Counted from the first letter of the stretch, positions 30,301 through 64,000 are shown. The stretch is DNA of 64,000 nucleotides from an uncultured Candidatus Binatia bacterium (GCA_965242525.1 OZ251459.1:3232001-3296000); one strand, 5' to 3'. A program made the numbers and translations. The notes: generated by a model not told the origin, from the sequence alone.

Positions 30301-31094
30301 AGCCGATCCAGGCCGGTGAGGCCGGCGAGGGGGGTGAGGTCCGAGATCCGGTTGTCGCTGAGGTATAGCCGGGTCAGGCCGGTGAGGCCGGCAAGGGGGC
30401 TGAGGTCCGAGATCCGGTTCACGGTGAGGCTTAGCTGCCTCAGGTTGGTGAGGCCGGCAAGGGGGGTGAGGTCCGAGATCCGATGGCTCTCGGGGAGTTG
30501 CAGGATTTGCAGGTTGGTGAGACCGGCGATCGGCGTGAGGTCCTGGAGGTCGGCATGTATGAGCGTCAGCTCGGTCAGGGAAGTCAGGCCGGCGAGGGGG
30601 GCGAGGTCCGAGATGGGATGATACCGGAGCCGCACGCGGGTCAGCCCGGTGGCGTGCTCCAGCCCCGTCAGATCGTGGATGCGGCCGGCCACGTTGAACT
30701 GGTCCGAGAAGGGGCCCACGAGCTGCAGGCAGCCGGTGGGGTCCGCATAGATGCAGGTCCTCAGCCCCGCCATGTCCGCGTGGGTGATGGTCGCTCCGCT
30801 GGCCTTGTTCAGCGCCGCCTCCACCTTCGCCCGCAAGTTGGCGTCGGGGATGTGCACCGGGTCGGTGGGCTGGGCCCCCGCGCCGGTATGCGCCGCAGCC
30901 TCATGCGCGGGCGCCGCGAACGAGACCACGACCGCAACGGCCCACAGCGCGAGCAGGACGCGAAGGGAACGCCCGGGGTTTCGACCCGCGGCGGCGCAAC
31001 CCCTTATCGGGGGGGGGGGGGGGGGGGCAGTGCATTCGGAAATCCCTTGCATGGTCGTCATGGCGTCCTCGGCTTGCCGGAGGTTGGTATCCAT
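27378..31094 (-). CDS. Autotransporter-like surface protein: internalin-type LRRs, FN3 domains, Calx-beta, C-terminal beta-barrel
   Basis: GGAGAGGAG RBS before ATG 31094; signal-like hydrophobic stretch; IPDANLR cap; 22-aa ISDLTPLAGLTNL repeats; LTVAW..GYKVQW..YTIPGLTPGVAYTVRV; TEDGTAEAGEDY..ETFRVRL; ends TRWRW. Confidence 0.88.
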   Translation of the reverse strand: MDTNLRQAEDAMTTMQGISECTAPPPPPPIRGCAAAGRNPGRSLRVLLALWAVAVVVSFAAPAHEAAAHTGAGAQPTDPVHIPDANLRAKVEAALNKASGATITHADMAGLRTCIYADPTGCLQLVGPFSDQFNVAGRIHDLTGLEHATGLTRVRLRYHPISDLAPLAGLTSLTELTLIHADLQDLTPIAGLTNLQILQLPESHRISDLTPLAGLTNLRQLSLTVNRISDLSPLAGLTGLTRLYLSDNRISDLTPLAGLTGLDRLTLAGNRITNIEPLRGMTSLTRLTLQENYRLRDLSPLSGMTSIYYFDLDAIGVEDISPLVLNSGLSSGDIVSLDDVTTLNADAAGHIATLRGRGVTVWGGDVEQARQWQVQNVRVTPGPGQLTVAWDPLPDAENSKTRTKPQGYKVQWRSGAQHWSDTVTYKYAADYADVPGMDRHRVVSGVNTRSYTIPGLTPGVAYTVRVKPDFGTFYAGAPSAEATGAPLDQITASVTPGAASLDVSWLRVPDATGYRVQWRSDAQEYGGDPDREDRCVPEGRTCISVEDDRASALRSISSVRATPYAEANRVTYTIEDLDPGVMYTVRVTPMFANGHGDEYAEVTGTPYRKAVASVTRASTIGAAGAAAAVEGEVAELRVVLDEPSEVLVTVRWATEDGTAEAGEDYRAADGRLTFRPGDREKTLRVETLDDLRVEPPETFRVRLTEATNAEPDPQAASGTVTITDDDTEGARHRALHMVLAGVGRTLATDAVDVIGGRFTGAPSEAQAVVGGQRLRLDPGGRDGAADMVFGMARVLGVEVHSSAAGNGAWDDPAGPPASTVWRDFDAAAGPWAGRDGRTWRRRQVSAAGILAGSRFELPLSDRESRGRTTGWTLWGRGTANGFGGRPVDGFTMDGDVFTGYVGLDYRMRRDVLLGMALAQSWGDVDYETTGVTRGKVDVGLTSVLPYVHWTPRSGLGVWGLLGAGWGDTDLEDEAGKADSDLEMLLASVGARQELFTWRKIDLAMKADAFLAGLEVGAAQGLPKASGDAQRMRLMLEGRTAWPVSEVSQVTPFLEIGGRWDRGDAETGLGAELGGGLEFADTELGLSVEARGRYLLLHEESSFDEWGASVTLRLDPGEFGGGLWFTMAPVWGAQGSRLEEMWRGPSGLRAGVDPDDAARGLSAQRLDLDVGYGVVTHQGAGLLTPYGGVSISGPGRRGYRLGSRMKLGKAMAMDLEGQHETRAGGGRTNSLTLYTRWRW
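30270..30620 (-). repeat. 66-bp coding tandem repeats (LRR units)
   Basis: Recurring gaggccggc(a/g)aggggg(g/c)tgaggtccgagat at 66-nt period. Confidence 0.85.
31009..31027 (-). repeat. 19-nt homopolymer (C19 on the coding strand) in the autotransporter leader
   Basis: G run 31009-31027 encoding APPPPPP. Confidence 0.9.
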
Positions 31095-42001: not shown

Positions 42002-42054
42002 GAGCGCGAGCCGCCCGGGCCGTGGCGCCCGCAGCCCTCCACGACGTCCCTGTC

Positions 42055-42222
42055 GATGTGGCTGGCGGTCGCCGCCGGGCCGTGCGCGCCTTGGCCCTGG
42101 CGTGTGCTGCCGCGGCGGACGATGTGGCTGGCCATCACCGCCGGGCCATGCGCACCGATGAACCGGACGACGCCGTCGGCCACGATGATGCGGCTGGCCA
42201 TCGCCTCCGGGCCGTGTGCGCC
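42055..42222. CRISPR. Candidate orphan degenerate CRISPR-like mini-array (3 x 36-nt repeats, 2 x 30-nt unique spacers)
   Basis: Repeats at 42055, 42121 and 42187, consensus GATGTGGCTGGCCATCGCCGCCGGGCCGTGCGCGCC. No cas genes in the window. Confidence 0.4.
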
Positions 42223-53321: not shown

Positions 53322-53347
53322 GGGGGGGGCTATTTTTCGCCTACATG

Positions 53348-53428
53348 GATTCCCGCTTTCGCGGGAATGACGCGGGGTGGGCGTCTGCGGGAATGACGGG
53401 GCAGGCGTCTGTGGAGCAATGACGGCGT
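53348..53428. repeat. Family-B repeat fragment
   Basis: ggattcccgctttcgcgggaatgacg...ggcgtctgcgggaatgacg...ggagcaatgacggcgtga. Confidence 0.8.
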
Positions 53429-53497
53429 GAGATCTTTCGACCCCACCGGGACAACATCTGAGGGTGTGGTGGACGACGCAGGACAAGGAGGTTGGTA

Positions 53498-54445
53498 ATG
53501 GCAACGTTTGTGGTGAAGACCGTGTACCAAGGAGTGCCGATTGACGGCGTTTTCGATGAATTGAAGGCTGGCAAGGCAAGAATCGGCTGGTCGAACGACG
53601 ACAAGCTGGATCTGCGGAAGATCAAACACAAACTGGAAGCAGGGTCGCCACTTGACGCAGATGAAGCGGCCGCGAAGAGATGCCTTGGCTTTCTGACTCG
53701 TGTAGAAAAAGGTGATACGCTACTTTATCCCCATCAGCCAGCGAGAGGGCAGTTTGCAGGGGTCGAAGTGACTGGCGACTACGAGTACTCTGACAAAGAC
53801 AATGCTATCTCGGGCGATTTCCGTTCGGTTAGGTCCTGCACCTTCAAGACGATCAAGACGAGCACATCAATGTACGATGACTCGGTTCCCTCCCAGTTGC
53901 GCTATCAGATGCAAAAACCTGGAAGATTCTACAGGATCTACGATGAGCGACCTTTGCATGAGTTCTTGGACCCCGAGGCCGGTACCATTCCATTGGAGAG
54001 AATCTACAAGCAGATGCGCAAGTGCCTTCCCGATGCTATCCGGAGACAATACAACGGAAAGGATCTTTCGAGGAAGTTCTTACCTGTGCTCTTCGAGCGC
54101 ATAGGCTACAGTTCCGATGTCCAGGAAGGGCCGAGCGAGGCCGGGGCTGATTTGGTAGTCTCCTTGGACAGCCCACTGCTACCCGAGAACAGGGAAATCC
54201 GGATCGGAGTGCAAGCGTTTGCATACGAAGGCAATGTTGCGACGAAAGAACTACAACGAAAGCTCGACCAGCTTCTTGAGGGCTGGGAGCAGAACAGGCT
54301 CGACTACGGTGTCCTGTTGACGACCGGAAACTGTGGCGAGGATGGGCGAAATCTAGTGGCTGCCCACAATGAGCAAAGACCGAACAGACCGGTGCGTCTG
54401 ATAGACGGGCCAGAACTGGCCTACCTGTTTCTCAAATACTTCTAG
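53498..54445 (+). CDS. Mrr-like restriction endonuclease with an N-terminal putative DNA-reader domain
   Basis: AAGGAGG RBS; RIGWS..DLR, KGDTLLYP; C-terminal EAGADLVV..IGVQAF..GVLLTTG..RLIDGPEL. Confidence 0.7.
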   Translation: MATFVVKTVYQGVPIDGVFDELKAGKARIGWSNDDKLDLRKIKHKLEAGSPLDADEAAAKRCLGFLTRVEKGDTLLYPHQPARGQFAGVEVTGDYEYSDKDNAISGDFRSVRSCTFKTIKTSTSMYDDSVPSQLRYQMQKPGRFYRIYDERPLHEFLDPEAGTIPLERIYKQMRKCLPDAIRRQYNGKDLSRKFLPVLFERIGYSSDVQEGPSEAGADLVVSLDSPLLPENREIRIGVQAFAYEGNVATKELQRKLDQLLEGWEQNRLDYGVLLTTGNCGEDGRNLVAAHNEQRPNRPVRLIDGPELAYLFLKYF

Positions 54446-54609
54446 GCTACTTCATCCATCTCTCTGAGCAAAGGAACATGCAATCGCTATTCGAGGCATT
54501 GACCTGAGACCTTGGAACGCCCGGAGAGGCGAGCGACAGAACAGGACGCCGGAACGACCGGCGCGGCAGCAGACCGGGAGCCGGCCCCGGAGTAGGAGAC
54601 AATCGCTTC

Positions 54610-55542
54610 ATGGGCCACACATCGACGCGGGACCGTTTTCGCGGTTGCCTCCTGGGGTTGGCGACGGGGGACGCCTTGGGGGCGCCGCTGGAGTTCAAAC
54701 GGCCCGACACGTTCCAGCCCATCGACGACATGGTGGGCGGCGGCTGCCACAACCTGAAGCCGGGTCAGTGGACGGACGATACTTCCATGGCCCTGTGCCT
54801 AGCCACGAGCTTGGTGGAATGCGGCGGGTTCGACGCCCGGGACCAGATGGAGCGCTACGTGCGCTGGTGGCGCAAGGGCTACCTATCCTCAACCGGACGG
54901 TGCTTCGACATCGGCAACACCACCATCGAATCCTTGAAACGCTTTGAGGAGACCGGAGACCCCCTCGCCGGAACCTCCGATCCCATGACCGCGGGAAACG
55001 GCTCGCTCATGCGCCTTGCGCCGGTCCCCATGTTCTTCGTCCGTGACGCCGCAGAGGCCATCGAGCAAAGCGCGGACAGCTCGAAAACGACCCACGGAGC
55101 CGCGGAAGCTGTGGATGCCTGCCGCTACTTCGCCGGCCTGCTCGTCGGCGCATTGCAGGGCGTGGACAAGGATACCCTCCTATCCGACCGCTATTGCCCG
55201 TTGGGCGGCTACTGGCAAAGGAACCGGCTGACAAGCAAGATCGACGCGGTCGCCGCGGGCTCCTTCAAGGACAAGGAACCGCCGGACATCAAAGGCGCCG
55301 GCTTCGTGGTCCTCTCCCTGGAGGCGGCGCTGTGGGCCTTCCACAACTCCACCGACTTCCGCCACGGGGCGCTGAAGGCCGTCAACCTGGGGGACGACGC
55401 CGACACCACCGGGACCATCTACGGACAGATCGCCGGGGCGTACTACGGCGCCGAGGCCATTCCCGAAAGTTGGCGACGGAAGAAACTGGCCATGCTGGAC
55501 AAGATCGAGTCCCTGGCGGATCGGCTATATGACCGAACGTGA
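54610..55542 (+). CDS. ADP-ribosylglycohydrolase (DraG/ARH family)
   Basis: [32 protein letters not shown]. Confidence 0.95.
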
Positions 55543-55552
55543 GCGAACGACC

Positions 55553-56095
55553 CTACACAGGTCTTATACCCTTGACGTACTGCTCCTGCTCGGCTGTTTC
55601 TATCGCTCCGCAACGGACACGGCGTACCTCGCAGATCGCGTCTTCCGGACGAGCGCCGAATTCGACCAGTAGGCAGGCGGCCACGGTGCCGGCTCGGCCG
55701 AGGCCCCCCTTGCAATGGATGAGCACGTTGCGGCCTGACCGCAATAAGCATCTAACGTCAGGGCCATAGCGTTTCCAGGCGCTTTCGAAGGTATTTCCCG
55801 GCGAATGGCCGTCCTGAATCGGCAGATGCAGCCACTCCATACCGCGTTCCTTGACCTCTTTGCCGAGATCACGGACCGAGAGGAGCTCGAGTTCGTCCTC
55901 CGTAATCAGGCTGACGACCGCAGCAGCGCCCCACTTCCGAACCACATCGAGATCGACGGCTAGGCAGCGTTCCTGGGGACCGTATCTCGCGTGAGGATCC
56001 TTCTTGCCGGGACATAGGGTGATGCCAATGAGGCCGTAGTCAGACCGTGGCCGCACCTCGGCAATGCGTAGTGGATCGTTCTCGCTGGTGTGCAT
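55553..56095 (-). CDS. CDKN3-like dual-specificity/tyrosine phosphatase
   Basis: CPGKKD, WLHLPIQD, HCKGGLGRAG (Cx5R), GAIET. Confidence 0.9.
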   Translation of the reverse strand: MHTSENDPLRIAEVRPRSDYGLIGITLCPGKKDPHARYGPQERCLAVDLDVVRKWGAAAVVSLITEDELELLSVRDLGKEVKERGMEWLHLPIQDGHSPGNTFESAWKRYGPDVRCLLRSGRNVLIHCKGGLGRAGTVAACLLVEFGARPEDAICEVRRVRCGAIETAEQEQYVKGIRPV

Positions 56096-56110
56096 GAATC
56101 TGTCCCTTCT

Positions 56111-56134
56111 GGTGCTTCAGGAAGTCGTGTGGGT
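56111..56134 (+). repeat. 24-bp motif identical in type to the family-B MITE end
   Basis: ggtgcttcaggaagtcgtgtgggt. Confidence 0.75.
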
Positions 56135-56217
56135 CAGGGGAGAACCTGAAGACGCCGCCCTGAAGGATCCTAAGCAGGGTCTCGCGGGTCAGGGCTGGCT
56201 AGGGACTGGCAGGGGTC

Positions 56218-57162
56218 CTATTTCTTTGCCCAAGGCTGCTTGTCAGCCCAATCAACCAGTTCTTGCGCCAATGCCCTCATTTCATCAAAGGATTCCGCGA
56301 AAGTATAACAACGCTTAAGCACTTGCGGATAGTGAGTCGTACATCCAGCTTTAACGGCACTCCCCAAAACTTTGAGTCTAACCATCCTGTCTTTGAGCCA
56401 ATCAAGGTTGCGGCGTTTCCGGAATACCTGCACATCTGGTTTTTTGAAGTCATACGCTGCAACGATGACGACATCGATTTTGCTGCAAGCGTTCGACTCC
56501 TTTGGGTTAGGGGCTGATGTTCCACATTTTATAAATGCTTTTTCCAAACCCCTTAGTATTCCCTGGAAGGTGTTGTTTTCATCCGCCGCCACTGTGTTCC
56601 CGCAAGCAACACCGAAGTGGACATCATGCCAATGGGTATCAGTTGCGAACGACATTCCCGCGTCCGAATAGCACATTGTTTGTTCTCTATGCTGATGGTA
56701 GAGAATTTGAACCTTTTCCCCTTGAGCCTCGCATCCATCAGCAAGACTTTCCGCTTTACGCACTGTATCTTTGCACCACACACCATACTTGATGTTTTTG
56801 GCAAGTGCATTTTTACGTTTAGCGGCCCAAGTTCGGCATTCGTTGGCGACCCACCTTTTATTGTCGTTCCACAGTCTGTCTAGTCCTTCCTTTCGACGCT
56901 GACGTTGACTAAGATAGCCGTGGGTGGAATCACAATCCAGAGTCTCTCGCCTGAACCTTGATTTGTTCCTATCGTCCGCATAGAAACTTTTCAAACCATC
57001 ACAAATCAAATAGTCACTTTGGTTGACCGTGGCAATGGCTTCGTCGCAATCGGAAATCTCCGTCGCATTCTGGACGGTTACATCATGGGCCAATGCGGTA
57101 TGCCCAACCGCAAGCAGCCCAGCGACCGCGACCGCCAGCAACGCCAGGATAGTTCCTTTCAT
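56218..57162 (-). CDS. Secreted cysteine-rich hypothetical protein
   Basis: Signal peptide MKGTILALLAVAVAG..ALA; many Cys; AGGAGG RBS; visibly lower GC. Confidence 0.75.
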   Translation of the reverse strand: MKGTILALLAVAVAGLLAVGHTALAHDVTVQNATEISDCDEAIATVNQSDYLICDGLKSFYADDRNKSRFRRETLDCDSTHGYLSQRQRRKEGLDRLWNDNKRWVANECRTWAAKRKNALAKNIKYGVWCKDTVRKAESLADGCEAQGEKVQILYHQHREQTMCYSDAGMSFATDTHWHDVHFGVACGNTVAADENNTFQGILRGLEKAFIKCGTSAPNPKESNACSKIDVVIVAAYDFKKPDVQVFRKRRNLDWLKDRMVRLKVLGSAVKAGCTTHYPQVLKRCYTFAESFDEMRALAQELVDWADKQPWAKK

Positions 57163-57236
57163 TCCGTCCCTCCTGTTAGTCAGGCTCTACAAGCCCTACT
57201 GCCTACCATCCTGCCAAGCGTGGACAAGATGGCCTA

Positions 57237-57683
57237 TCAGCATATGATTCGCTTTAGTTCTTTCTCTACGCCAAAGAAATTCTGTATATCGCTCACAAGC
57301 CCTAAATAATCCAAGGTGCTAACTCGTAGGACGAGAACTTTATTATCATTTGCATATGCGTCAAAGCCAGGGGCAAATCTCTTGGTGGCCCCACTAATCA
57401 ACAGGATGCCCTTAGATGCTTTGTCCTTTCTCTTATAGTTCACTACTTGCTTGACCGCCCTTTTGGGCAGAGGGCTTTTAGGATAATGCTTGCATTCAAT
57501 GACGTAGCGCTTTCCGCCTGGTCTCCTTTCGGAGATAAGAATGTCCATCCTCCCCTTAATCCTCCTGAGAATACCCTGGGAACGGACGCGGTAATGGTCA
57601 TTAGGAAAACACCTTTTAACCAATTCCTCGCAAACCCGTTCAAAGTCTCTCCATTTCATTGGTTTCTGTTGAAGCAATCCCAT
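57237..57683 (-). CDS. Stand-alone Mrr_cat-like PD-(D/E)xK nuclease
   Basis: WRDFERVCEEL, GRMDIL, VIECKHY, VKQV, KGILLIS. Confidence 0.75.
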   Translation of the reverse strand: MGLLQQKPMKWRDFERVCEELVKRCFPNDHYRVRSQGILRRIKGRMDILISERRPGGKRYVIECKHYPKSPLPKRAVKQVVNYKRKDKASKGILLISGATKRFAPGFDAYANDNKVLVLRVSTLDYLGLVSDIQNFFGVEKELKRIIC

Positions 57684-57715
57684 TGTTCCTCCCTTTGGGG
57701 TCGAACACTGGAAGG

Positions 57716-59197
57716 CTACCGGCTACCGCCAAAGGCAGCCGTCAAGTCGGTACGTTGGAGAGTACCACCCATCGACTGATAAGTTCTTCCGTAAAAGCTC
57801 CCCGTCACCGCACCGCTGGAAGTGTTCGGAATGCCCCGGCCGGTAAATCCCGTATCGGCATTATTGAATTCGGTCCCATCAATTCTGACCTTGTAAGCCA
57901 ATTCACCGGCTACGGGTTCGCCGGTTCCTGTCCACAAGGCAGCATCAGGATTGGGTGTTGTCCTATCCCAATAACGAATATCGTCAAACGACAAGTCATG
58001 CCTGCCGCTATAAACACTGGACAGATCGACGGTAAGGTCAACATCGCCAATCACTCTGCGGTTAGCACTATAGCCAATCATTGCGCCATCCCATGTAGCC
58101 GTTCCTGCACGTCCTACACTGTCCGGGAGGTTCCCCGATGGAGTTCGCCCATATGCCCAAGGGTAGTAATGCGAATTATCCCACGTGACTCCGAAGAATG
58201 TCTCGCCATTCGTCTCTCCGATCAAGTGTTGACGGGTAGTATTCCAAATCCCTGAATACGGACTATACAATGCTTGAAGCGCCGCCAAATCATCACGCGA
58301 CATTATACGCACGGGATTTGTCACTCCCGCATGTGGCTTGAGCGCTGAAGTAGGGAAAGAAATCCTCGATACATGCCCACGAAAACCTAGCACGTGCAGA
58401 ATCTCATGAACCGCCGTAATAGAACCGCCGGCCGTGCTATCAATACCCTCTGGCACAAGAATCATTCCCGCGTGCATATGGGTCCCCGAAGGCGATGGGA
58501 TTTGATAGGCCAAACCCAAGGTGTTACTTCCAACAAATGAGTCCCAAGTTGCTCTATCCAATTGAAATGCTACTATAGTGCCCTCGCGGGCAGGATCAAG
58601 CAACCAATTGTAAACGCTGTCCACTCCTTCCCCAACTGGCATTGCATCATCCCTGACAACTCGCATCTTCCTGTTTGCAGGCAATGCTTCATTCACCAAC
58701 CGAACAGCATCAAATGCAAACTCGATAACCCTGTCCGAATACAGTTCACGATTATTCAAACTCCCATAATGTCGCCATGTAGGTCGAACCCTGAAAGGCA
58801 ACATCGACTGATCTCTCGAACCTGTATCCTGATAGCTGGGGTTTTGAACCTGATACTGGTACACCCCTAGCCGTGTTGAAAGAATGCCATCGTTCGCATC
58901 CCCACCGAAAATCGTCACCCCATCCGAACGTCTCTGACGAACAATCAATGAACTCAAATCAATCCCTTGAGCGGCCAATCCCACGTTGGTTAGCCCTCCG
59001 CTCGTATAGACAGGTGACAAGTTCTCCAACCTGACCGCACCCGGATTTCCTCTCGTCGGTGTTGGCGCCGGCGTTGGAGCCGGCACCGGTGGCGTTACCC
59101 TTGATGGTGGCCCACTGCTCATAGTAGCGGTCTTGCTACCGCCGCTGCACCCGGCCAGCATCAACACTACCGCCAACGCCAAGATCGTTCCCTTCAT
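57716..59197 (-). CDS. Lipoprotein with a zincin-like HExxH motif and a C-terminal TbpB-like beta-barrel
   Basis: Lipobox LAGC, PT/PA linker, HEILHVLGFRGH, C-terminal VTGSFYG..MGGTL..AAFGG. Confidence 0.75.
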   Translation of the reverse strand: MKGTILALAVVLMLAGCSGGSKTATMSSGPPSRVTPPVPAPTPAPTPTRGNPGAVRLENLSPVYTSGGLTNVGLAAQGIDLSSLIVRQRRSDGVTIFGGDANDGILSTRLGVYQYQVQNPSYQDTGSRDQSMLPFRVRPTWRHYGSLNNRELYSDRVIEFAFDAVRLVNEALPANRKMRVVRDDAMPVGEGVDSVYNWLLDPAREGTIVAFQLDRATWDSFVGSNTLGLAYQIPSPSGTHMHAGMILVPEGIDSTAGGSITAVHEILHVLGFRGHVSRISFPTSALKPHAGVTNPVRIMSRDDLAALQALYSPYSGIWNTTRQHLIGETNGETFFGVTWDNSHYYPWAYGRTPSGNLPDSVGRAGTATWDGAMIGYSANRRVIGDVDLTVDLSSVYSGRHDLSFDDIRYWDRTTPNPDAALWTGTGEPVAGELAYKVRIDGTEFNNADTGFTGRGIPNTSSGAVTGSFYGRTYQSMGGTLQRTDLTAAFGGSR

Positions 59198-59215
59198 TTT
59201 ATCCCTCCTGTTAGT

Positions 59216-59239
59216 GGTGCTTCAGGATTTCGTGGGATC
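59216..59239 (+). repeat. 24-bp motif (family-B end type)
   Basis: ggtgcttcaggatttcgtgggatc. Confidence 0.65.
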
Positions 59240-59342
59240 AGCGGTGATCGAGCGACACCGTCCACTACAGATCGCCTCCCGTCTCCACACCGACCCTCGA
59301 ACACCCATGAGACCCCAACCATTCACCCCTTCAACTCGCCTC

Positions 59343-60692
59343 CTATGCGTTGATCCACCCGAGCCGGTGGTTCTGGATTTGGTGGGAGACCACGAAAGGG
59401 CTGACCTTGTAGTGTTGCGCCAATTGGTCGATTTCAGCAGGTGACACTTGGTCGCCGATATGCTTGGCTATGTTCGCCGCGGGCGCCAGGAGTTCGGCTG
59501 CGAAGGCGCGGGACGCGCGTTGCTCGGCGGTGTACGCCTTGGTGACGATCCGACGACCTTCTCGATTGCTGCCGAAGTGCCGCAGGAAGGCGGCCCTGGC
59601 CAGTCTGAACCTGTTGCCGGCGGCGTCTTCATTGTAGGCCACGGCCACCGAACCGCCATCCTCACTGCGCTCCAACACCGCTTCCAACTGCCCTTTCGGT
59701 TGTACGTCCACGGTTCGAGAAGGAGATTGCGCCCAGCCAAGGCGATGCAAAACGTCATCCATATCTCCTACAGGTTCCTGTCCGTCCGATTCGGAGAGAT
59801 ACTGTCGCGTTGCTTGCGCACAGGCGTAGCCTAATTCGTGGGCGGTTCTTGCGTCCGTTGCCCTCGTTAGCCGGGCTTCCGCTGCTATCGGCGCCCCGGC
59901 GTCCAGCGCTGCGGAATGCGCCTTGTCCAGCCACTCCAGGTCCTCTTGCAGGCTCAAGGGTTGGCCTGCGTCAAGCAAGTCGTCCCTGATCGAGCCTTCG
60001 AGGCCGGAGATACGCTCGGACAGCATGTCGGCCACTTTTTCCGTGAGCTCATGGGCGTTGTACGGGTCCAAACCGAGGCGGGCCGACCACTCGCAAAGCT
60101 CCCTTTCGCTTTGCATGGACGCTAAAACCGCTGCCCACTCTTCTTGAAGGGCCTTGGCATCCGGGGCCTCGATCCCTGCAAGCCGCTCCAGGACTTCCCT
60201 GACCAGTTCCGACAGACCGCGTTCGGCCTCCGCCGGGTCCATCTGTACCTCGCCTGACCCGGTAAAGCGCAGGAACGGGTGGATCGAATCCTCGTGGTCC
60301 GGCGTCCAACGTGCAACGACGGCTCGGTCATCCCGAAAGATCATCAGGTCGGGCAGCGCTCCGCCTTCCCTGGCGGCCAGCAGGCTGTGCCGTTGAACCC
60401 AAGGCCGATCGGTCGGGCTCTTCGCCAGTTCTCGGGCGGCGTGAGGACCAGGGAACCGGTAGGACTCGTTCAGGAGAAACCACCAGTTCTCCAGGATCCA
60501 TTGGCATAGCGGCAAGACAGACCCGTAAACGCCCCCGCGCAGGCTCTCGGATCGGAGGTCAACCGCCTGGGTCACCAGCCGACCGCCTGCCTCGATGACC
60601 AAACGCCCCCAGGTACGGGCCAGCACGCCGACACGAACCCCCGGCGCTTCCTGCCATTCGATGCGGAACCGCAGCATTATGGTTTCCTCCAA
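59343..60692 (-). CDS. ImmA/IrrE (DUF955)-like protein lacking the HExxH motif
   Basis: RFRLARA where RFTLAHE is expected; QRASRAFAAELLAP; LAQHYKVSPFVVSHQIQN. Confidence 0.75.
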   Translation of the reverse strand: MEETIMLRFRIEWQEAPGVRVGVLARTWGRLVIEAGGRLVTQAVDLRSESLRGGVYGSVLPLCQWILENWWFLLNESYRFPGPHAARELAKSPTDRPWVQRHSLLAAREGGALPDLMIFRDDRAVVARWTPDHEDSIHPFLRFTGSGEVQMDPAEAERGLSELVREVLERLAGIEAPDAKALQEEWAAVLASMQSERELCEWSARLGLDPYNAHELTEKVADMLSERISGLEGSIRDDLLDAGQPLSLQEDLEWLDKAHSAALDAGAPIAAEARLTRATDARTAHELGYACAQATRQYLSESDGQEPVGDMDDVLHRLGWAQSPSRTVDVQPKGQLEAVLERSEDGGSVAVAYNEDAAGNRFRLARAAFLRHFGSNREGRRIVTKAYTAEQRASRAFAAELLAPAANIAKHIGDQVSPAEIDQLAQHYKVSPFVVSHQIQNHRLGWINA

Positions 60693-61078
60693 TTCAGCCG
60701 GTTTTCAGGGTCGGTTGGGTACTCGGCTTCCTCGATTTCATAACCCTTGTAAGTCCCCGCCGGTCCGTTGATGTGCCGCGCCTCGTAAAGCCGGCCGTCA
60801 ATCCAACCCCAAACGTATTTGGGAAAGCCCTGCTCGAAGACGCTGCTCACGCAGCGACGGCGAATCGCCTCTTGCAGCGCAGTCTGAATGGCCGCAACGG
60901 GGATTTGCGGGTCGCAGGGCGTCGCATCCGAGCGCAGTGCGGGAGGCCCTGTTGAAGTGGGGTACGCTTTATGCTCCGTACTCCCGATGTACCGGGCGCC
61001 TGACGCAACGACCTCTGGAGGATGCTGTTGAGACGGCCAAGCGCCGATCGTTCGCCGTTTGGTTCGGTAGTGTCTCAC
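60677..61078 (-). CDS. Small hypothetical protein coupled to the IrrE-like gene
   Basis: YIGSTEHK, GFPKYVW, YEARHIN, TYKGY; overlaps the downstream gene start. Confidence 0.7.
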   Translation of the reverse strand: MRHYRTKRRTIGAWPSQQHPPEVVASGARYIGSTEHKAYPTSTGPPALRSDATPCDPQIPVAAIQTALQEAIRRRCVSSVFEQGFPKYVWGWIDGRLYEARHINGPAGTYKGYEIEEAEYPTDPENRLNWRKP

Positions 61079-61113
61079 GCGGTAGCCTCTAATGTGGATC
61101 TTGTCTAATTCCC

Positions 61114-61137
61114 GGCGCTTCAGGAATTCGTATGGGT
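61114..61137 (+). repeat. 24-bp motif (family-B end type)
   Basis: ggcgcttcaggaattcgtatgggt, one mismatch from the reverse complement of 25792-25815. Confidence 0.8.
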
Positions 61138-61235
61138 AAGTGGTCTTCGTGCGACACCATTGGGGTAGACATCAAGACCACCGAAATGAAATCATCCCGA
61201 CCGACACGGCTTGCACGGCCATTTCCTATGAGGCT

Positions 61236-62000
61236 TTAGGTGTTTCCGCTTCCAGGTTCGCTACCCGGAGTTGTCCCCTGGCTCCCGCGATAGTCGCGAT
61301 AGTTCAAGAGTCTCTGTGCCCAACGGAAGTCGGTGGATTTCGGCTCGTCATCCGTATCTGCCACGTCTTCATCCGCGGTTTGCTCGATCAGAAGCTCTGC
61401 CTTCATCAACCTCAGCACTTCATCGATAGTAATCAGGCGACGGGTTTTTCCAGCGTTGTCAGGCATTCGGAGTGGTCGAAAGACCTCGTCGTATTGCGTG
61501 TGCTGTTCCTTCGTGACTTCAGTTGCCAAACCAAAGACTTGAAGCTGTAGAACGAACCGGCAGAGCAATTGCCCCAAGTTCAAATCCCTGATGTGATGTG
61601 TTTGTTGCGCGGGAATCCCCATTGTCGGCCTCGAAAGAAGCGTGATGGTCATCGCGAGTTCTTCCATCTGTCCCAATTCATCCCTGTCAAGCTGGCCGTC
61701 CATGGCAGACTTGGTATAGCTCGATATGAATTTTTGGAATAGCTCGAGCTTTTTGTTGAATATCGCAGTCTTGTTTGCTGTCGCACGCTCCTCTGCCTGC
61801 TCGACGTTTCCCTGTTGCCTTATCAACAACATGGTTATCATCACGGTTATGATTGATCCCAGGAGGGCCGCAAGTATCTCTGTTGCGAGGTTGCTCGGGT
61901 TGGTGTCGTAGAAAGACTTGAAGAACAGGAAAACCCCGATTCCCAAGAGTACGATCATGAAAACGAGAAACAGTTGGTTTCGAAGTCGATTCATCGTCAT
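61236..62000 (-). CDS. Hypothetical membrane protein (two N-terminal TM helices)
   Basis: LFLVFMIVLLGIGVFLFF and ILAALLGSIITVMITMLLI; GGAG RBS. Confidence 0.75.
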   Translation of the reverse strand: MTMNRLRNQLFLVFMIVLLGIGVFLFFKSFYDTNPSNLATEILAALLGSIITVMITMLLIRQQGNVEQAEERATANKTAIFNKKLELFQKFISSYTKSAMDGQLDRDELGQMEELAMTITLLSRPTMGIPAQQTHHIRDLNLGQLLCRFVLQLQVFGLATEVTKEQHTQYDEVFRPLRMPDNAGKTRRLITIDEVLRLMKAELLIEQTADEDVADTDDEPKSTDFRWAQRLLNYRDYRGSQGTTPGSEPGSGNT

Positions 62001-62098
62001 GGTCGCATCTCCAAGGGTTGTTGGTTACTTGCGCCTCGTGCGGCCGTCTGGATCCTCTGGTGCAGCGGTACTGCCATCAAGGCGCTTCGGTACCGGCA

Positions 62099-62494
62099 TC
62101 ATTTCGTGGTCAGGAGCGCCTTTCGGAACGCTTCGGCCTCGTTTGTGGAGACATGGGAGAGCGAGTAGGACTCGGAGCGGGTTTCAATGGTTATTACGCA
62201 CCAGCCGAATATCTTGCCCAACAGGGATCGGTCCAGCTTCACGTTGTCGATGGCCGAGATCGGCACGAGGTCATCGTCTTTTACGAACCAGCGCCCATGT
62301 TCACACGTGATACTATTGGAGCCGGTTTCGAAAAGGATCCTGTTGCGGTTGACGACAGCCCTTTTGTACCAGAACAGCGGAAGCAGGACTATGAGAATCA
62401 GCGGCTCGCCAGTCTGCATAACGGCGGCTACCGGGATAATGCTCCAGGAGATCCAGAAGAAAAAGCTGTAGGAACTGGCCACGCCGACTTTCAT
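62099..62494 (-). CDS. Membrane protein with a bacterial PH (bPH_2-like) domain
   Basis: GAGGT RBS; two TM segments; VPISAIDNVKLDRSLLGKIFGWCVITIET. Confidence 0.75.
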   Translation of the reverse strand: MKVGVASSYSFFFWISWSIIPVAAVMQTGEPLILIVLLPLFWYKRAVVNRNRILFETGSNSITCEHGRWFVKDDDLVPISAIDNVKLDRSLLGKIFGWCVITIETRSESYSLSHVSTNEAEAFRKALLTTK

Positions 62495-62634
62495 GGTGAC
62501 ACCTCGTTTCCTCGTTGAGTTGGGCAGGAATCGTGCGGGCGGCTTCTTCTTCGCCCTCTCCTGCCTCCCCGCCCGCGTACTGCCATCCACTGCACCGTAC
62601 CGCGAATACCCCTGTTCCCGCAATCACCCACTCT

Positions 62635-63630
62635 TCACCGCGCCGCACCCGCATGATGCGCCGCCAGCGACGCGCACAGCTTGGCCAGACGCCGGCGGAG
62701 ACGGGCGGGCTTCTCCACCGTGACGCTGTTCCCCCAGGTGAACAGGTGCCAGCACATCTCGTCGAGGCCGCCCGCCTCGAAGCGCACCGTCAGCGAGCCG
62801 TCGTCGTTTTCCCGGACGGTCTGGTCCGGATGGAAGAGGAACGCCGAGGCGTCCCGCGCCGCCCTCGCATCGAAGCGCAGCGCCACCTTGACCGGCTTCT
62901 CCTGGAACGTGCCGAACGAACGCTCGGCGTAGCGCTGCAAGTCGAAGGCCGGGTCCCGCTCGAACGTCTCGCCGGTGGTCCGGGCCTCGCTCACGTTGGC
63001 GAGGCGCCACAGCCGCGGCTCCCGGGACCAGTCGGTCCACCCCACCAGGAACGCGCGGTTCCCGTAGAGCAGGCCGCCGGGCCGGACCTGCTGCCGACTC
63101 CGCCGCCCGGTCGATTGGGAGAAATAGCGGAACTCCACCACCCGGCAGGCGGCGATGGCTTCGCGCATGAGGGCGAGCAGGCCCCTGTCCAGGCGCTGCC
63201 TCGGACCGGGGCGCATGGCCAGGCCCTCGGCCTGCATGAGCATTTCGAGGTCGGACTCCACCCGCGCCTGCGTTTCTTCGTGCAGCGTGGCCCGCAGCTT
63301 CGCGGCCAAGTCCCGGAGCAGGGCCGCGCGTTCCTCCAGGCCGGCCCGGTCCAGGGCCGCGGCCGCAGTCTCGACCTCCGCCAACTCCTTGGCCGAGACG
63401 GAGACGAGGCGGCGCAAGGCGCCCGAGCGCAACCGCCAATATACTTTCCTCTCGTCCCTGTCCACGGTGTCCAGCGGCCCGAAGGCCGCATCTACCGCGG
63501 CGCGCCAACGCTCGGCCGTGCGCCGGCTGATGGAAAACTCGGCCTGGATGTCGTCCAGGGTCCATCCGCCGAGGGCCGCCTGGAGACGAACGGCCAAGTC
63601 CAAGATGTCCTTCAGGCGTTCGTAGCGCAT
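62635..63630 (-). CDS. WYL-domain transcriptional regulator (HTH-WYL-WCX)
   Basis: HTH TLDDIQAEFSISRRTAER; VEFRY..RQQVRPGGLLYGNRAFLVG..RLWRLANV; FHPDQ; WGNSVTVEKP. Confidence 0.93.
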   Translation of the reverse strand: MRYERLKDILDLAVRLQAALGGWTLDDIQAEFSISRRTAERWRAAVDAAFGPLDTVDRDERKVYWRLRSGALRRLVSVSAKELAEVETAAAALDRAGLEERAALLRDLAAKLRATLHEETQARVESDLEMLMQAEGLAMRPGPRQRLDRGLLALMREAIAACRVVEFRYFSQSTGRRSRQQVRPGGLLYGNRAFLVGWTDWSREPRLWRLANVSEARTTGETFERDPAFDLQRYAERSFGTFQEKPVKVALRFDARAARDASAFLFHPDQTVRENDDGSLTVRFEAGGLDEMCWHLFTWGNSVTVEKPARLRRRLAKLCASLAAHHAGAAR

Positions 63631-63655
63631 GCCGCGGTCCTCCCTGGTCCATTGG

Positions 63656-63694
63656 CGTCCTTCGACTTCGCTACGCTACGCTCAGGACGAACGG
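63656..63694. repeat. Family-A REP-like repeat
   Basis: cgtccttcgacttcgctacgctacgctcaggacgaacgg. Confidence 0.85.
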
Positions 63695-63824
63695 AGGGGG
63701 ATTTTCTCCTTGCTCGCCACAGGTTTATTGCTCACTGCATGTGGTCTCTTGCTCGCTGCACGACTACAGAAAGTTTAGTACACGAAACCCCGCAAACGCC
63801 ATCCCGCCCCGGAGGGGCTGGCCG

Positions 63825-64000
63825 CTAGGGCCGCAGGCCGATGGTGCGGGGGCGGTCCGGCTTGGCGTCGCACTCGGCGCGCAGCATGGCGGCCAGGGTC
63901 TCCGGCTCCCGCAGGCAGTCCAGGACTTCGGCCTTCCGGCGCACCACCGCGAAGTCGCCGGGGGTCAGGACCCCGAGGGCCGCGACTTCCGCCGGGGGAG
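63825..64000 (-). CDS. C-terminus of a probable AAA-family ATPase (partial)
   Basis: Manual translation PPAEVAALGVLTPGDFAVVRRKAEVL...LRAECDAKPDRPRTIGLRP*; LTPGDFA and terminal IG(F/L) are typical. Confidence 0.65.
   Translation of the reverse strand, partial: PPAEVAALGVLTPGDFAVVRRKAEVLDCLREPETLAAMLRAECDAKPDRPRTIGLRP

What the first reader, a model, noticed from the sequence alone, without database searches (positions are those of the whole stretch)
55553..63830. WYL-headed array of co-oriented gene modules delimited by a recurring 24-bp element-end motif: candidate cassette-capture system
Seen: nine genes, all on the minus strand: WYL, PH protein, membrane protein | small protein + IrrE-like | lipoprotein, nuclease, secreted protein | phosphatase. 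Each boundary carries the same motif in the same orientation (61114, 59216, 56111), only 15-35 nt upstream of the next start codon. Base composition visibly differs between modules. The motif is the terminal repeat of the family-B MITE. A possible decayed opposite end lies at about 63777-63800. No integrase, attC or transposase is in view. Inference: an integron-like stack of cassettes built by repeated insertion at or by IS-end sites, expressed under a nucleic-acid-sensing WYL regulator.
Basis: partly seen in the sequence, partly recalled or inferred. Interest (0 to 1): 0.78.

Follow-up and report, generated by a model that had tools for sequence, protein, structure and literature searches.

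The report
Insertion-sequence scars in a variable island
The recurring 23-base motif is the worn-down end of an ISL3-type jumping gene, and the supposed cassette array is a strain-variable gene island patched together around such scars, not a new gene-capture system.

Summary
Nine co-oriented genes sit at 55553-63630. A 23-nt motif lies at 61114, 59216 and 56111 on the minus strand, 35, 18 and 15 nt before the next start codon, and GC content steps at those points.

The motif is the right inverted repeat (IRR) of an ISL3-family insertion sequence. The transposase stop codon lies inside it. Intact relatives of about 1.33 kb in other MAGs carry the same ends. The derived MITEs show 8-bp target duplications. 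The family has about 167 ends here, about 164 in the closest relative G023, and 0-5 in each of 26 other genomes of the genus. No intact transposase remains in this genome.

Two of the three locus copies keep a piece of the transposase 3' end.

In G023 the WYL gene is directly followed by the phosphatase, and homology to this genome stops at the IRR tip. At three other remnant-bearing IRRs the tip also coincides with a G000/G023 breakpoint. Other breakpoints in the locus lack the motif.

No integrase lies nearby, the junctions form no attC-like hairpin, and no duplications bracket the modules. The WYL gene's conserved partner is an upstream AAA ATPase, and its downstream genes differ in every relative.

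Verdict: an IS-scarred mosaic island. An IS26-like stacking mechanism is not excluded.

The parts
63825..64000 (-). 3' end of a 740-aa double-AAA ATPase gene that runs off the window. It is the conserved upstream neighbour of the WYL gene.
   Evidence: Pfam AAA, 1.7e-31. A 686-764-aa ORF lies directly upstream of WYL relatives in 4 metagenome loci. The one tested (L030) is also an AAA ATPase.
63642..63795 (.). REP-bearing insertion of about 125-145 nt between the ATPase and WYL genes. It is absent from G023.
   Evidence: (families D4/D8)
62635..63630 (-). wHTH-WYL-WCX regulator gene, 94% identical in nucleotides to G023's copy
62099..62497 (-). bPH_2 (bacterial PH domain) gene. It is 82% identical in nucleotides to a G023 gene that follows a WYL 3' fragment there.
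61236..62000 (-). 254-aa predicted membrane protein with no family. It is unrelated to the 393-aa gene that follows PH in G023.
61137..61191 (-). Remnant of the 3' end of an ISL3 transposase gene. It reads ...FHFGGLDVYPNGVARRPLTHTNS and its stop codon lies in the motif.
   Evidence: local alignment score 55; the 99th percentile of 3000 random segments is 23
61114..61136 (-). ISL3 right inverted repeat (IRR), 1 mismatch to the consensus, tip 35 nt before the next start codon
60677..61078 (-). 133-aa protein of unknown family. It is the conserved partner of the next gene, and its stop overlaps that gene's start (TAATG).
   Evidence: (partner present at 11 of 11 loci)
59343..60677 (-). 444-aa protein whose C-terminal part matches the second half of Peptidase_M78 (ImmA/IrrE)
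59216..59267 (-). Eroded IRR (59216-59238, one base deleted) plus about 30 nt of the transposase 3' end
   Evidence: 18 of 30 in-register identities; 0.1% of random 30-mers reach 16 or more
57716..59197 (-). 493-aa lipoprotein with an HExxH motif (seen by eye). It has a weak, sub-threshold match to the C-terminus of Slam-dependent surface lipoproteins.
   Evidence: (29.1 bits against a cut-off of 80)
57237..57683 (-). 148-aa Mrr_cat restriction-endonuclease-fold protein
57139..57180 (-). 5' leader plus the first codons (MKGTILAL) of the secreted-protein gene. It is an 86% copy of 59174-59215. The two mature proteins are unrelated.
   Evidence: (D20)
56218..57162 (-). 314-aa secreted protein with no family
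56111..56133 (-). Solo IRR with 2 mismatches and no detectable transposase remnant. Its tip lies 15 nt before the phosphatase start. Homology to G023 ends here.
   Evidence: 10 of 30, background level
55553..56095 (-). DSP-PTPase (PTP-SAK / Tc-R-P type) phosphatase. In G023 it directly follows the WYL gene.
54610..55542 (+). ADP-ribosylglycohydrolase gene, inverted relative to its G023 counterpart
53492..54445 (+). 317-aa Mrr_cat-type protein with weak PADLOC PDC-S02 hits. It has no counterpart in the G023 locus.
53345..53425 (.). MITE-interior-type repeats at the left edge of the island. Homology of the conserved flank to G023 ends at 53328.
   Evidence: (D6/D7)

Best explanation
The motif is the right terminal inverted repeat (IRR) of a now-extinct ISL3-family insertion sequence and of the MITEs derived from it.

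Window 53329-62637 is a strain-variable island. It lies between a conserved MBL-fold gene and a conserved AAA-ATPase/WYL gene pair.

Shown:
- ISL3 copies were once in this island. Three ends remain, all in one orientation.
- In this lineage, ISL3 ends mark places where unrelated DNA has been joined.

Inferred:
- IS copies landed in A/T-rich 8-mers just upstream of genes.
- Recombination between IS copies, or IS-associated insertions and deletions, then placed unrelated gene groups next to one another. These groups are PH+membrane; small+IrrE-like; lipoprotein+nuclease+secreted; and phosphatase.
- The IS bodies were later deleted down to the IRR plus 55, about 30, and 0-7 nt of the transposase gene.

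The array is therefore a by-product of ordinary IS-driven genome plasticity in a conflict- or defence-type island. It is not a dedicated capture machine, and nothing shows that the WYL protein controls it.
For: Identity of the motif:
- The reading frame ...FRDAIYFHFGGLDVYP...THTNS ends with a stop codon inside the motif.
- The fragments match Pfam DDE_Tnp_ISL3.
- Four of five relatives whose ORFs were printed have 421-429-aa open frames (the fifth, 365 aa), in elements of about 1.33 kb with ends 1-6 mismatches from our two consensus ends. The one run through Pfam (L057) has Zn_ribbon_ISL3+HTH_Tnp_ISL3+DDE_Tnp_ISL3.
- Of 209 ends, 59 form pairs. Fifty-five of the pairs span 111-559 bp. The 8-nt flanks are identical in 9 of 59 pairs and differ at one base in 7 of 59.
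- The family is specific to one lineage: 167 hits in G000, 164 in G023, 0-5 in each of 26 other genomes, and 0 for the reversed control pattern.
- No intact transposase gene exists in this genome.

Locus:
- A transposase remnant lies next to 2 of the 3 copies.
- In G023 the order is WYL, a solo left end plus a REP, then the phosphatase. Homology to this genome stops at 56110, the IRR tip.
- At the three other remnant-bearing IRRs examined, the tip also coincides with a G000/G023 breakpoint. These are L099 and L100 in G000 and L054 in G023.
- The nine perfect target duplications are 62.5% A+T (45 of 72 bases, counted by hand) in a genome of 33% A+T. The 8-mers outside the three locus tips hold 5, 5 and 4 A/T. 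This can explain landing next to ribosome-binding regions.
- A published survey reports ISL3 over-represented between co-oriented genes and within 50 bp of neighbouring genes, and describes IS hotspots (PMC9208149, passages read).

Against a dedicated system.
Against: - Three solo IRRs in one orientation within 5 kb occur nowhere else in the genome.
- All three lie 15-35 nt before a start codon, whereas only 13 of 101 IRR-type ends genome-wide have a co-oriented start within -30..+60 nt (the gene calls are crude).
- All three are cut down to 23-78 nt of an element of about 1.33 kb. Random deletion end-points would rarely give this.
- By eye, from the sequences printed, the copies at 59216 and 56111 share two changes from the family consensus. 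They flank the lipoprotein-nuclease-secreted group as direct repeats. End-directed insertion would produce this pattern.
- Only one close relative exists, so the order of events cannot be reconstructed. The two inner boundaries (61114, 59216) have no homologous counterpart to test.
Confidence: 0.75

Rival explanations
1. IS-end-directed stacking. Each module entered as a circular unit carrying one ISL3 copy and was joined next to a resident copy, either by the transposase or by homologous recombination (a cointegrate). This gives directly oriented IS copies between modules, as IS26 does with translocatable units. The IS bodies decayed later.
For: - All three ends have the same orientation and are IRR-type.
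- Two sister-like IRRs flank the lipoprotein-to-secreted group as direct repeats (by eye).
- No target duplications bracket the modules, as expected for conservative or homologous joining.
- IRR tips coincide with joins to foreign or translocated DNA at all 4 sites that could be compared.
- IS26 behaviour is taken from PMC4196232 and PMC7885326 (search listing and start of abstract only).
Against: - The enzyme is ISL3, not IS6/IS26 family. To my knowledge no targeted conservative mode is described for ISL3 (recalled, not searched).
- No intact IS or left end remains in the locus.
- Three co-oriented ends arise by chance 1 time in 4.
- The small+IrrE-like pair is found elsewhere without the motif (0 of 11 loci).
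Confidence: 0.12
2. The IRR stubs are kept because they now serve the downstream genes as an outward promoter, leader or operator, for example a site for the WYL protein. This would explain why only the last 23-78 nt survive, right in front of start codons. This reading does not exclude the best explanation.
For: - The tips lie 35, 18 and 15 nt upstream of start codons.
- Every copy is trimmed to the tip-proximal part.
- ISL3 is reported within proximal promoter regions of neighbouring genes (PMC9208149, passages).
Against: - There is no sigma-70-like site at any IRR: 5 sites in the region against 3.2 +/- 2.2 in shuffles, none at the motifs.
- There is no Rfam match and no unusual fold.
- Genome-wide, only about 10% of ends lie near a co-oriented start.
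- No RNA data were available.
Confidence: 0.1
3. One reading: an integron-like cassette-capture system with the motif as its recombination site, headed and controlled by the WYL regulator.
For: - The array is co-oriented, the motif recurs at boundaries, and GC content steps there.
- One G000/G023 breakpoint lies at a motif tip.
Against: - The motif is an ISL3 inverted repeat with about 167 genomic copies.
- The nearest of the 3 tyrosine-recombinase matches is about 0.5 Mb away.
- No attC-like structure is present.
- Breakpoints at 62098/62099 and at 55450-55560 lack the motif.
- The genes downstream of WYL differ in all 16 metagenome loci, and none of those loci has the motif.
Confidence: 0.02

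Closest known systems
ISL3-family insertion sequences and their MITE derivatives
   Same: - DDE_Tnp_ISL3 transposase whose 3' end runs into the right inverted repeat.
- 23-nt terminal inverted repeats beginning GGC(T/G)CTTC.
- 8-bp A/T-rich target duplications.
- Non-autonomous derivatives of 111-559 bp.

   Different: - No intact copy is left in this genome.
- The expansion is confined to the G000/G023 lineage within the genus.
- Three one-sided stubs are clustered in one island.
IS26 pseudo-compound transposons / translocatable units (PMC4196232, PMC7885326; listing and abstract starts only)
   Same: Gene groups are interspersed with directly oriented copies of one IS end, and no duplications bracket the individual groups.
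   Different: - The IS family is different (ISL3, not IS6).
- Only eroded right ends remain.
- No evidence shows that the transposase targets resident ends.
- The cargo is conflict- or defence-type genes in an uncultured bacterium, not resistance genes.
Integron gene-cassette arrays (recalled knowledge)
   Same: A co-oriented stack of compositionally distinct gene units has a recurring boundary sequence close to each next start codon.
   Different: - No IntI is present and there is no attI.
- The boundary sequence is not an attC hairpin but an IS inverted repeat.
- Some boundaries lack it.

BrxR / CapW wHTH-WYL-WCX regulators beside defence islands (PMC9122601, PMC11662680, bioRxiv 10.1101/2022.01.04.474952; listing and abstract starts only)
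   Same: - The domain make-up is the same: HTH, WYL, WCX.
- The neighbours are nuclease, phosphatase and ADP-ribosylglycohydrolase genes typical of conflict islands.
   Different: - No known defence system is recognised downstream by PADLOC.
- The conserved partner is an upstream AAA ATPase, while the downstream genes vary.
- Regulation was not tested.

Membership tests
ISL3-family IS (the motif as its end) | DDE_Tnp_ISL3 transposase encoded between the ends | tested here: met
   PF01610 matches fragments that abut the motif. An intact 429-aa relative (L057) has Zn_ribbon_ISL3+HTH_Tnp_ISL3+DDE_Tnp_ISL3 and the same ends.
ISL3-family IS (the motif as its end) | Terminal inverted repeats of roughly 15-39 bp (range recalled) | tested here: met
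   23-nt ends occur in inverted pairs: 59 pairs among 209 ends.
ISL3-family IS (the motif as its end) | 8-bp target-site duplication (recalled as typical of ISL3) | tested here: met
   The 8-nt flanks are identical in 9 of 59 pairs and differ at one base in 7 of 59. About 0.02 pairs are expected by chance (the expectation is my own calculation).
ISL3-family IS (the motif as its end) | Autonomous, intact copy in this genome | tested here: not met
   tblastn and PF01610 find only fragments. The family is extinct here, so the locus copies are relics.
MITE | Short non-coding element with the parent IS's inverted repeats and target duplication, in many copies | tested here: met
   55 of 59 pairs span 111-559 bp. 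There are 167 hits in G000.
Integron | IntI tyrosine recombinase adjacent to the array | tested here: not met
   PF00589 has 3 matches in the genome, at C1 1.32, 2.38 and 2.78 Mb. The locus is at 3.29 Mb.
Integron | attC sites (imperfect palindromes that fold as hairpins) at cassette boundaries | tested here: not met
   The junctions, folded as single-stranded DNA, give z -0.10, -0.46 and -0.86 against shuffles. The boundary sequence is an IS inverted repeat.
IS26-type pseudo-compound transposon | IS6/IS26-family transposase | tested here: not met
   The transposase remnants are ISL3.
IS26-type pseudo-compound transposon | Directly oriented IS copies between cargo segments | tested here: inconclusive
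   Three right-end stubs lie in one orientation. No whole IS or left end remains, so the orientation of the full copies is inferred.
wHTH-WYL-WCX regulators (BrxR/CapW type) | N-terminal HTH, WYL domain, C-terminal WCX domain | tested here: met
   Pfam WCX 1.2e-14 and WYL 1.5e-09. HTH_23 and HTH_28 score below their cut-offs. PADLOC WYL 4e-25.
wHTH-WYL-WCX regulators (BrxR/CapW type) | Represses an adjacent defence system | not testable with these tools
   No expression or binding data are available. The downstream genes are not conserved in relatives.

The most novel reading that the evidence does not exclude
ISL3 ends act here as reusable docking sites. Each gene group arrived as a circle carrying one ISL3 copy. 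It was joined, by the transposase or by recombination, beside the resident right end. This built a co-oriented stack whose genes are read from the retained IRR stubs. That would be IS26-like 'translocatable unit' behaviour in a different IS family and in an uncultured symbiont's conflict island.
Probability: 0.1. Interest if true: 0.6.

Novelty: new member of a known kind. Interest (0 to 1): 0.25.

Why it matters
The result replaces a tempting 'new integron-like system' reading with a tested one. The boundary motif is an ISL3 end, and such ends mark the joints of a mosaic island.

This is useful in three practical ways:
- It gives a recipe for recognising IS scars: look for a transposase stop codon inside the repeat, 8-bp duplications, and breakpoints at the tip.
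- It corrects the IS-family assignment of an abundant MITE family in this genome lineage.
- It documents a lineage-specific burst of about 165 ends followed by extinction of the transposase.

Near-identical ends and transposases 73-77% identical occur in many copies in MAGs titled Spirochaetia, and once each in two titled Dehalococcoidia. This hints at IS exchange across phyla. None of this is conceptually new.

Tried and rejected
1. Public read data. Only Logan contigs were available. Run X6, probably the source, covers the locus with no differences in every long piece listed; one 94-letter piece shows 10. Run X9 holds identical short pieces. Run X10 holds the lipoprotein-to-secreted part identically (56599-59176) and shows one joint, 59212 to 63671. 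Its shorter side is only 27 letters and lies in a multi-copy REP, so I draw nothing from it. No circular junctions could be sought. Run X1, labelled a sponge metagenome, holds 95-99% pieces only. I make no habitat claim.

2. The tip variant GAAGCACC shared by the copies at 59216 and 56111. In G023, all 7 fetched copies of this variant sit in one larger repeat with a different interior. It therefore gives no link to our locus.

3. A second same-strand triple of ends at C1 2.125-2.131 Mb. One member is a chance match inside a gene and the GC content is normal, so it is not analogous.

4. An ancestral complete IS between WYL and the phosphatase (G023's solo left end plus our right end). The outer 8-mers do not match: 2 of 8, by eye. 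Not supported.

5. Target duplications bracketing modules: none found.

6. Lipoprotein relatives in genome contigs: none. ESM Atlas for the small protein: only unnamed clusters. NCBIfam: nothing above its cut-offs.

7. The ISL3 copy in G016 is a different subfamily with different ends.

8. Promoter and terminator scan, Rfam and tRNA search: nothing at the motifs.

9. Local alignment of the upstream regions of 59216 and 56111 against one reference remnant was not significant (scores 16 and 12). Only the in-register test supports a remnant at 59216.

Full report
**What is there**

The nine minus-strand ORFs exist as described. Pfam gives the following assignments:
- HTH+WYL+WCX for 62635-63630.
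- bPH_2 for 62099-62497.
- The second half of Peptidase_M78 for 59343-60677.
- Mrr_cat for 57237-57683.
- DSP-PTPase families (PTP-SAK, Tc-R-P, CDKN3) for 55553-56095.
- Nothing for the membrane protein, the small protein, the lipoprotein or the secreted protein.

PADLOC recognises only the WYL protein, plus weak capP/RmrA and PDC-S02 hits. NCBIfam gives nothing above its cut-offs.

GC content steps between the groups:

| Group | GC |
|---|---|
| WYL | 0.69-0.73 |
| PH + membrane | 0.49-0.56 |
| small + IrrE-like | 0.61-0.64 |
| lipoprotein to secreted | 0.45-0.53 |
| phosphatase | 0.59-0.62 |

The motif is 23 nt long. It lies at 61114-61136, at 59216-59238 (one base missing) and at 56111-56133, always on the minus strand. 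Its tip is 35, 18 and 15 nt upstream of the next start codon. It is far more frequent than chance allows. The core gives 7 hits in the window against 0.95 expected. The genome holds 173 copies at <=5 mismatches, against 1-6 for five scrambled motifs.

**What the motif is**

Many copies form inverted pairs a few hundred bases apart. One pair member ends ...AAAGCCGGAAGAGCC and the other ...AATTCCTGAAGCGCC.

Three copies, including the one at 61136, share further upstream sequence. That sequence translates to ...FRDAIYFHFGGLDVYPNGVARRPLTHTNS, and the stop codon lies inside the motif. The same C-terminus closes the genome's DDE_Tnp_ISL3 fragments. The motif is therefore the right inverted repeat (IRR) of an ISL3-family insertion sequence. 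The other variant is the left repeat.

The closest relatives were retrieved from other MAGs. Their transposases are 73-77% identical over the 180-aa query. Four of the five whose ORFs were printed have 421-429-aa open frames; the fifth has 365 aa. The elements span about 1.33 kb and their ends lie 1-6 mismatches from our consensus ends. The one run through Pfam has the full Zn_ribbon_ISL3+HTH_Tnp_ISL3+DDE_Tnp_ISL3 architecture.

Of 209 ends at <=4 mismatches, 59 form pairs. Fifty-five of these pairs span 111-559 bp. The flanking 8-mers are identical in 9 pairs and differ at one base in 7. This is the 8-bp duplication expected of ISL3; that expectation is recalled, not looked up. Ninety-one ends are solo, and 40 of those are IRR-type.

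This genome has no intact transposase. Within the genus the family is confined to two genomes: 167 hits in G000, 164 in G023, 0-5 in each of the other 26, and 0 for the reversed control.

Earlier notes of this scan (e1-1206667, e1-781926) call this genome's MITEs 'IS5-type'. For the family that bears this motif, my tests say ISL3. I did not check whether those notes concern the same family.

**The three locus copies**

| Copy | Upstream transposase remnant | Evidence |
|---|---|---|
| 61114 | 55 nt | score 55; 99th percentile of 3000 random segments is 23 |
| 59216 | about 30 nt, once the one-base deletion in the motif is allowed for | 18 of 30 in-register identities; 0.1% of 20,000 random 30-mers reach 16 |
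| 56111 | none detectable | 10 of 30, the level seen at other ends |

By eye, the copies at 59216 and 56111 share two departures from the consensus.

This is the only uninterrupted run of three same-strand IRR-type ends within 6 kb in the genome. The one other same-strand triple is not comparable.

**Comparison with relatives**

A 12-kb query was searched against 41 genomes, counting G000. Only G023 is close, at 93-94% identity in the flanks. No listed match covers window 56134-62098; the only listed match between 56111 and 62098 is the IRR stub at 61113-61191. The listing was truncated by 135 rows.

In G023 the gene order is:
1. AAA ATPase.
2. WYL, 94% identical.
3. A solo left end plus a REP.
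4. Phosphatase, 83% identical.
5. ADP-ribosylglycohydrolase, in the opposite orientation to ours.
6. A 350-aa gene.
7. A 3' fragment of a WYL gene.
8. PH, 82% identical.
9. A 393-aa gene unrelated to our membrane protein.

Homology upstream of the phosphatase stops at 56110, which is the IRR tip. Two other breakpoints carry no motif: 62098/62099 at the PH stop codon, and 55450-55560.

Our genome instead has a REP-bearing insertion of about 125-145 nt there.

I examined three other remnant-bearing IRRs. In each, the tip coincides with a G000/G023 difference:
- L099 in G000. A 2.5-kb block of nested IS debris, specific to G000, ends 3 nt beyond the IRR.
- L100 in G000. Sequence that in G023 lies about 0.44 Mb from the homologues of the flanks starts at the base after the IRR.
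- L054 in G023. The stub separates blocks that lie about 0.45 Mb apart in G000.

**Are the modules units, and does WYL head them?**

The small protein and the IrrE-like protein form a genuine pair. Nineteen of 28 genomes of the genus (counting G000) hold relatives at 25-37% identity. At 11 of 11 loci examined, the small gene lies directly upstream. At 0 of 11 is the motif present within the roughly 1.5-kb flanks.

The lipoprotein and the secreted protein share only their leader and first 8-11 residues.

WYL relatives were found in 16 metagenome loci at 38-74% identity (tblastn). None is followed by any other gene of our locus, and none has the motif. Four of them have a 686-764-aa ORF directly upstream. 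The one tested is a double-AAA ATPase like ours.

WYL therefore looks like the last gene of a conserved ATPase-WYL pair that borders a variable region. In one relative, the WYL gene itself is split by an IS256-type transposase.

**Tests of the capture-system reading**

- The three tyrosine-recombinase matches in the genome lie at least 0.5 Mb away.
- The junctions do not fold better than shuffles.
- No 8-mer duplications bracket any module.
- No promoter-like site falls on the stubs.
- No Rfam family and no tRNA gene is at the locus.
- Genome-wide, only 22 of 209 ends have a co-oriented start within -30..+60 nt, against 133 of 2000 random intergenic points. The gene calls are crude and composition-based.

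**Most likely mechanism**

Shown: the motif is an ISL3 end, and in this lineage such ends sit at joints between unrelated DNA.

Inferred:
- ISL3 copies landed in A/T-rich 8-mers close to ribosome-binding regions. The nine perfect duplications are 62.5% A+T by hand count. The locus outer 8-mers hold 5, 5 and 4 A/T.
- Recombination between dispersed copies, or IS-associated insertion and deletion, brought unrelated gene groups together.
- Deletion then removed the dead IS bodies.

A published survey reports IS hotspots and ISL3 lying between co-oriented genes close to their starts (PMC9208149, passages read).

What this does not explain well: the common orientation, the uniformly short stubs, and their constant position just before start codons. 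These features keep alive two minority readings. One is IS26-like end-directed stacking (PMC4196232 and PMC7885326, listing and abstract starts only). The other is stubs retained as expression signals.

**Verdict**

The locus is an IS-scarred mosaic island with conflict- or defence-type content next to a BrxR/CapW-type regulator gene (PMC9122601 and others, listing only). It is a new member of a known kind, of modest interest. No supplementary files were consulted.

Noticed in passing
L056-L081: ISL3 relatives with near-identical ends and transposases 65-78% identical (most 72-77%) occur in many copies in MAGs whose record titles say Spirochaetia. At least 10 loci come from one record. Single loci come from two MAGs titled Dehalococcoidia. 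The 90-94% identical fragments come from a MAG titled Candidatus Binatia. This suggests exchange of the IS across phyla.
   Followed up: partly
window 59343-61078; L019-L029: The small protein plus the 444-aa IrrE-like protein form a multi-copy two-gene module in the genus (1-6 matches per genome in 18 of 27 other genomes). The start and stop codons overlap (TAATG). By eye, the IrrE-like domain lacks a clear HExxH motif. Function is unknown.
   Followed up: partly
window 57139-57180 and 59174-59215; G000 C1:2377823: A leader plus first-codons block of about 42-56 nt (MKGTILAL...) is shared by otherwise unrelated secreted or lipoprotein genes. A third copy lies elsewhere in the genome, near ISL3 debris at C1 2.379 Mb.
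   Followed up: partly
L017 8154-8400; L037-L040; L038 3803-6018: 3' fragments of WYL genes recur in relatives: in G023 and in loci L037, L039 and L040. In L038 the WYL gene is split by a frameshifted IS256/Mutator-family transposase. The WYL gene seems to be a frequent recombination or insertion target.
   Followed up: partly
L046 826-7845 (G000 C1:3295825-3302844): Upstream of WYL lie a 740-aa double-AAA ATPase gene and three further large co-oriented ORFs (692, 576 and 424 aa; the first two overlap in different frames, so not all need be genes) without Pfam matches. They may form a conserved system with WYL.
   Followed up: no
window 53492-55542: An Mrr_cat-type 317-aa gene has weak PDC-S02 (candidate defence) hits. 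An ADP-ribosylglycohydrolase gene converges on the PTP-SAK phosphatase gene. In G023 the glycohydrolase and the phosphatase are co-oriented neighbours. They may form a functional pair.
   Followed up: no
window 63642-63700 and many other sites: The abundant hairpin repeat (families D1-D4) is, according to earlier notes of this scan, the CGTC-tagged REP / neisserial dRS3 type. One copy lies in the insertion between the ATPase and WYL genes that G023 lacks.
   Followed up: no
window 30235-30617 and 42052-42222: Tandem 66-nt periodic repeats (families D5 and D12). Not examined.
   Followed up: no
L099 4890-6680 (G000 C1:796889-798679): Another multi-copy element (4 copies at 83% identity in G023) is nested with the ISL3 stub in a G000-specific 2.5-kb block of IS debris.
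   Followed up: no
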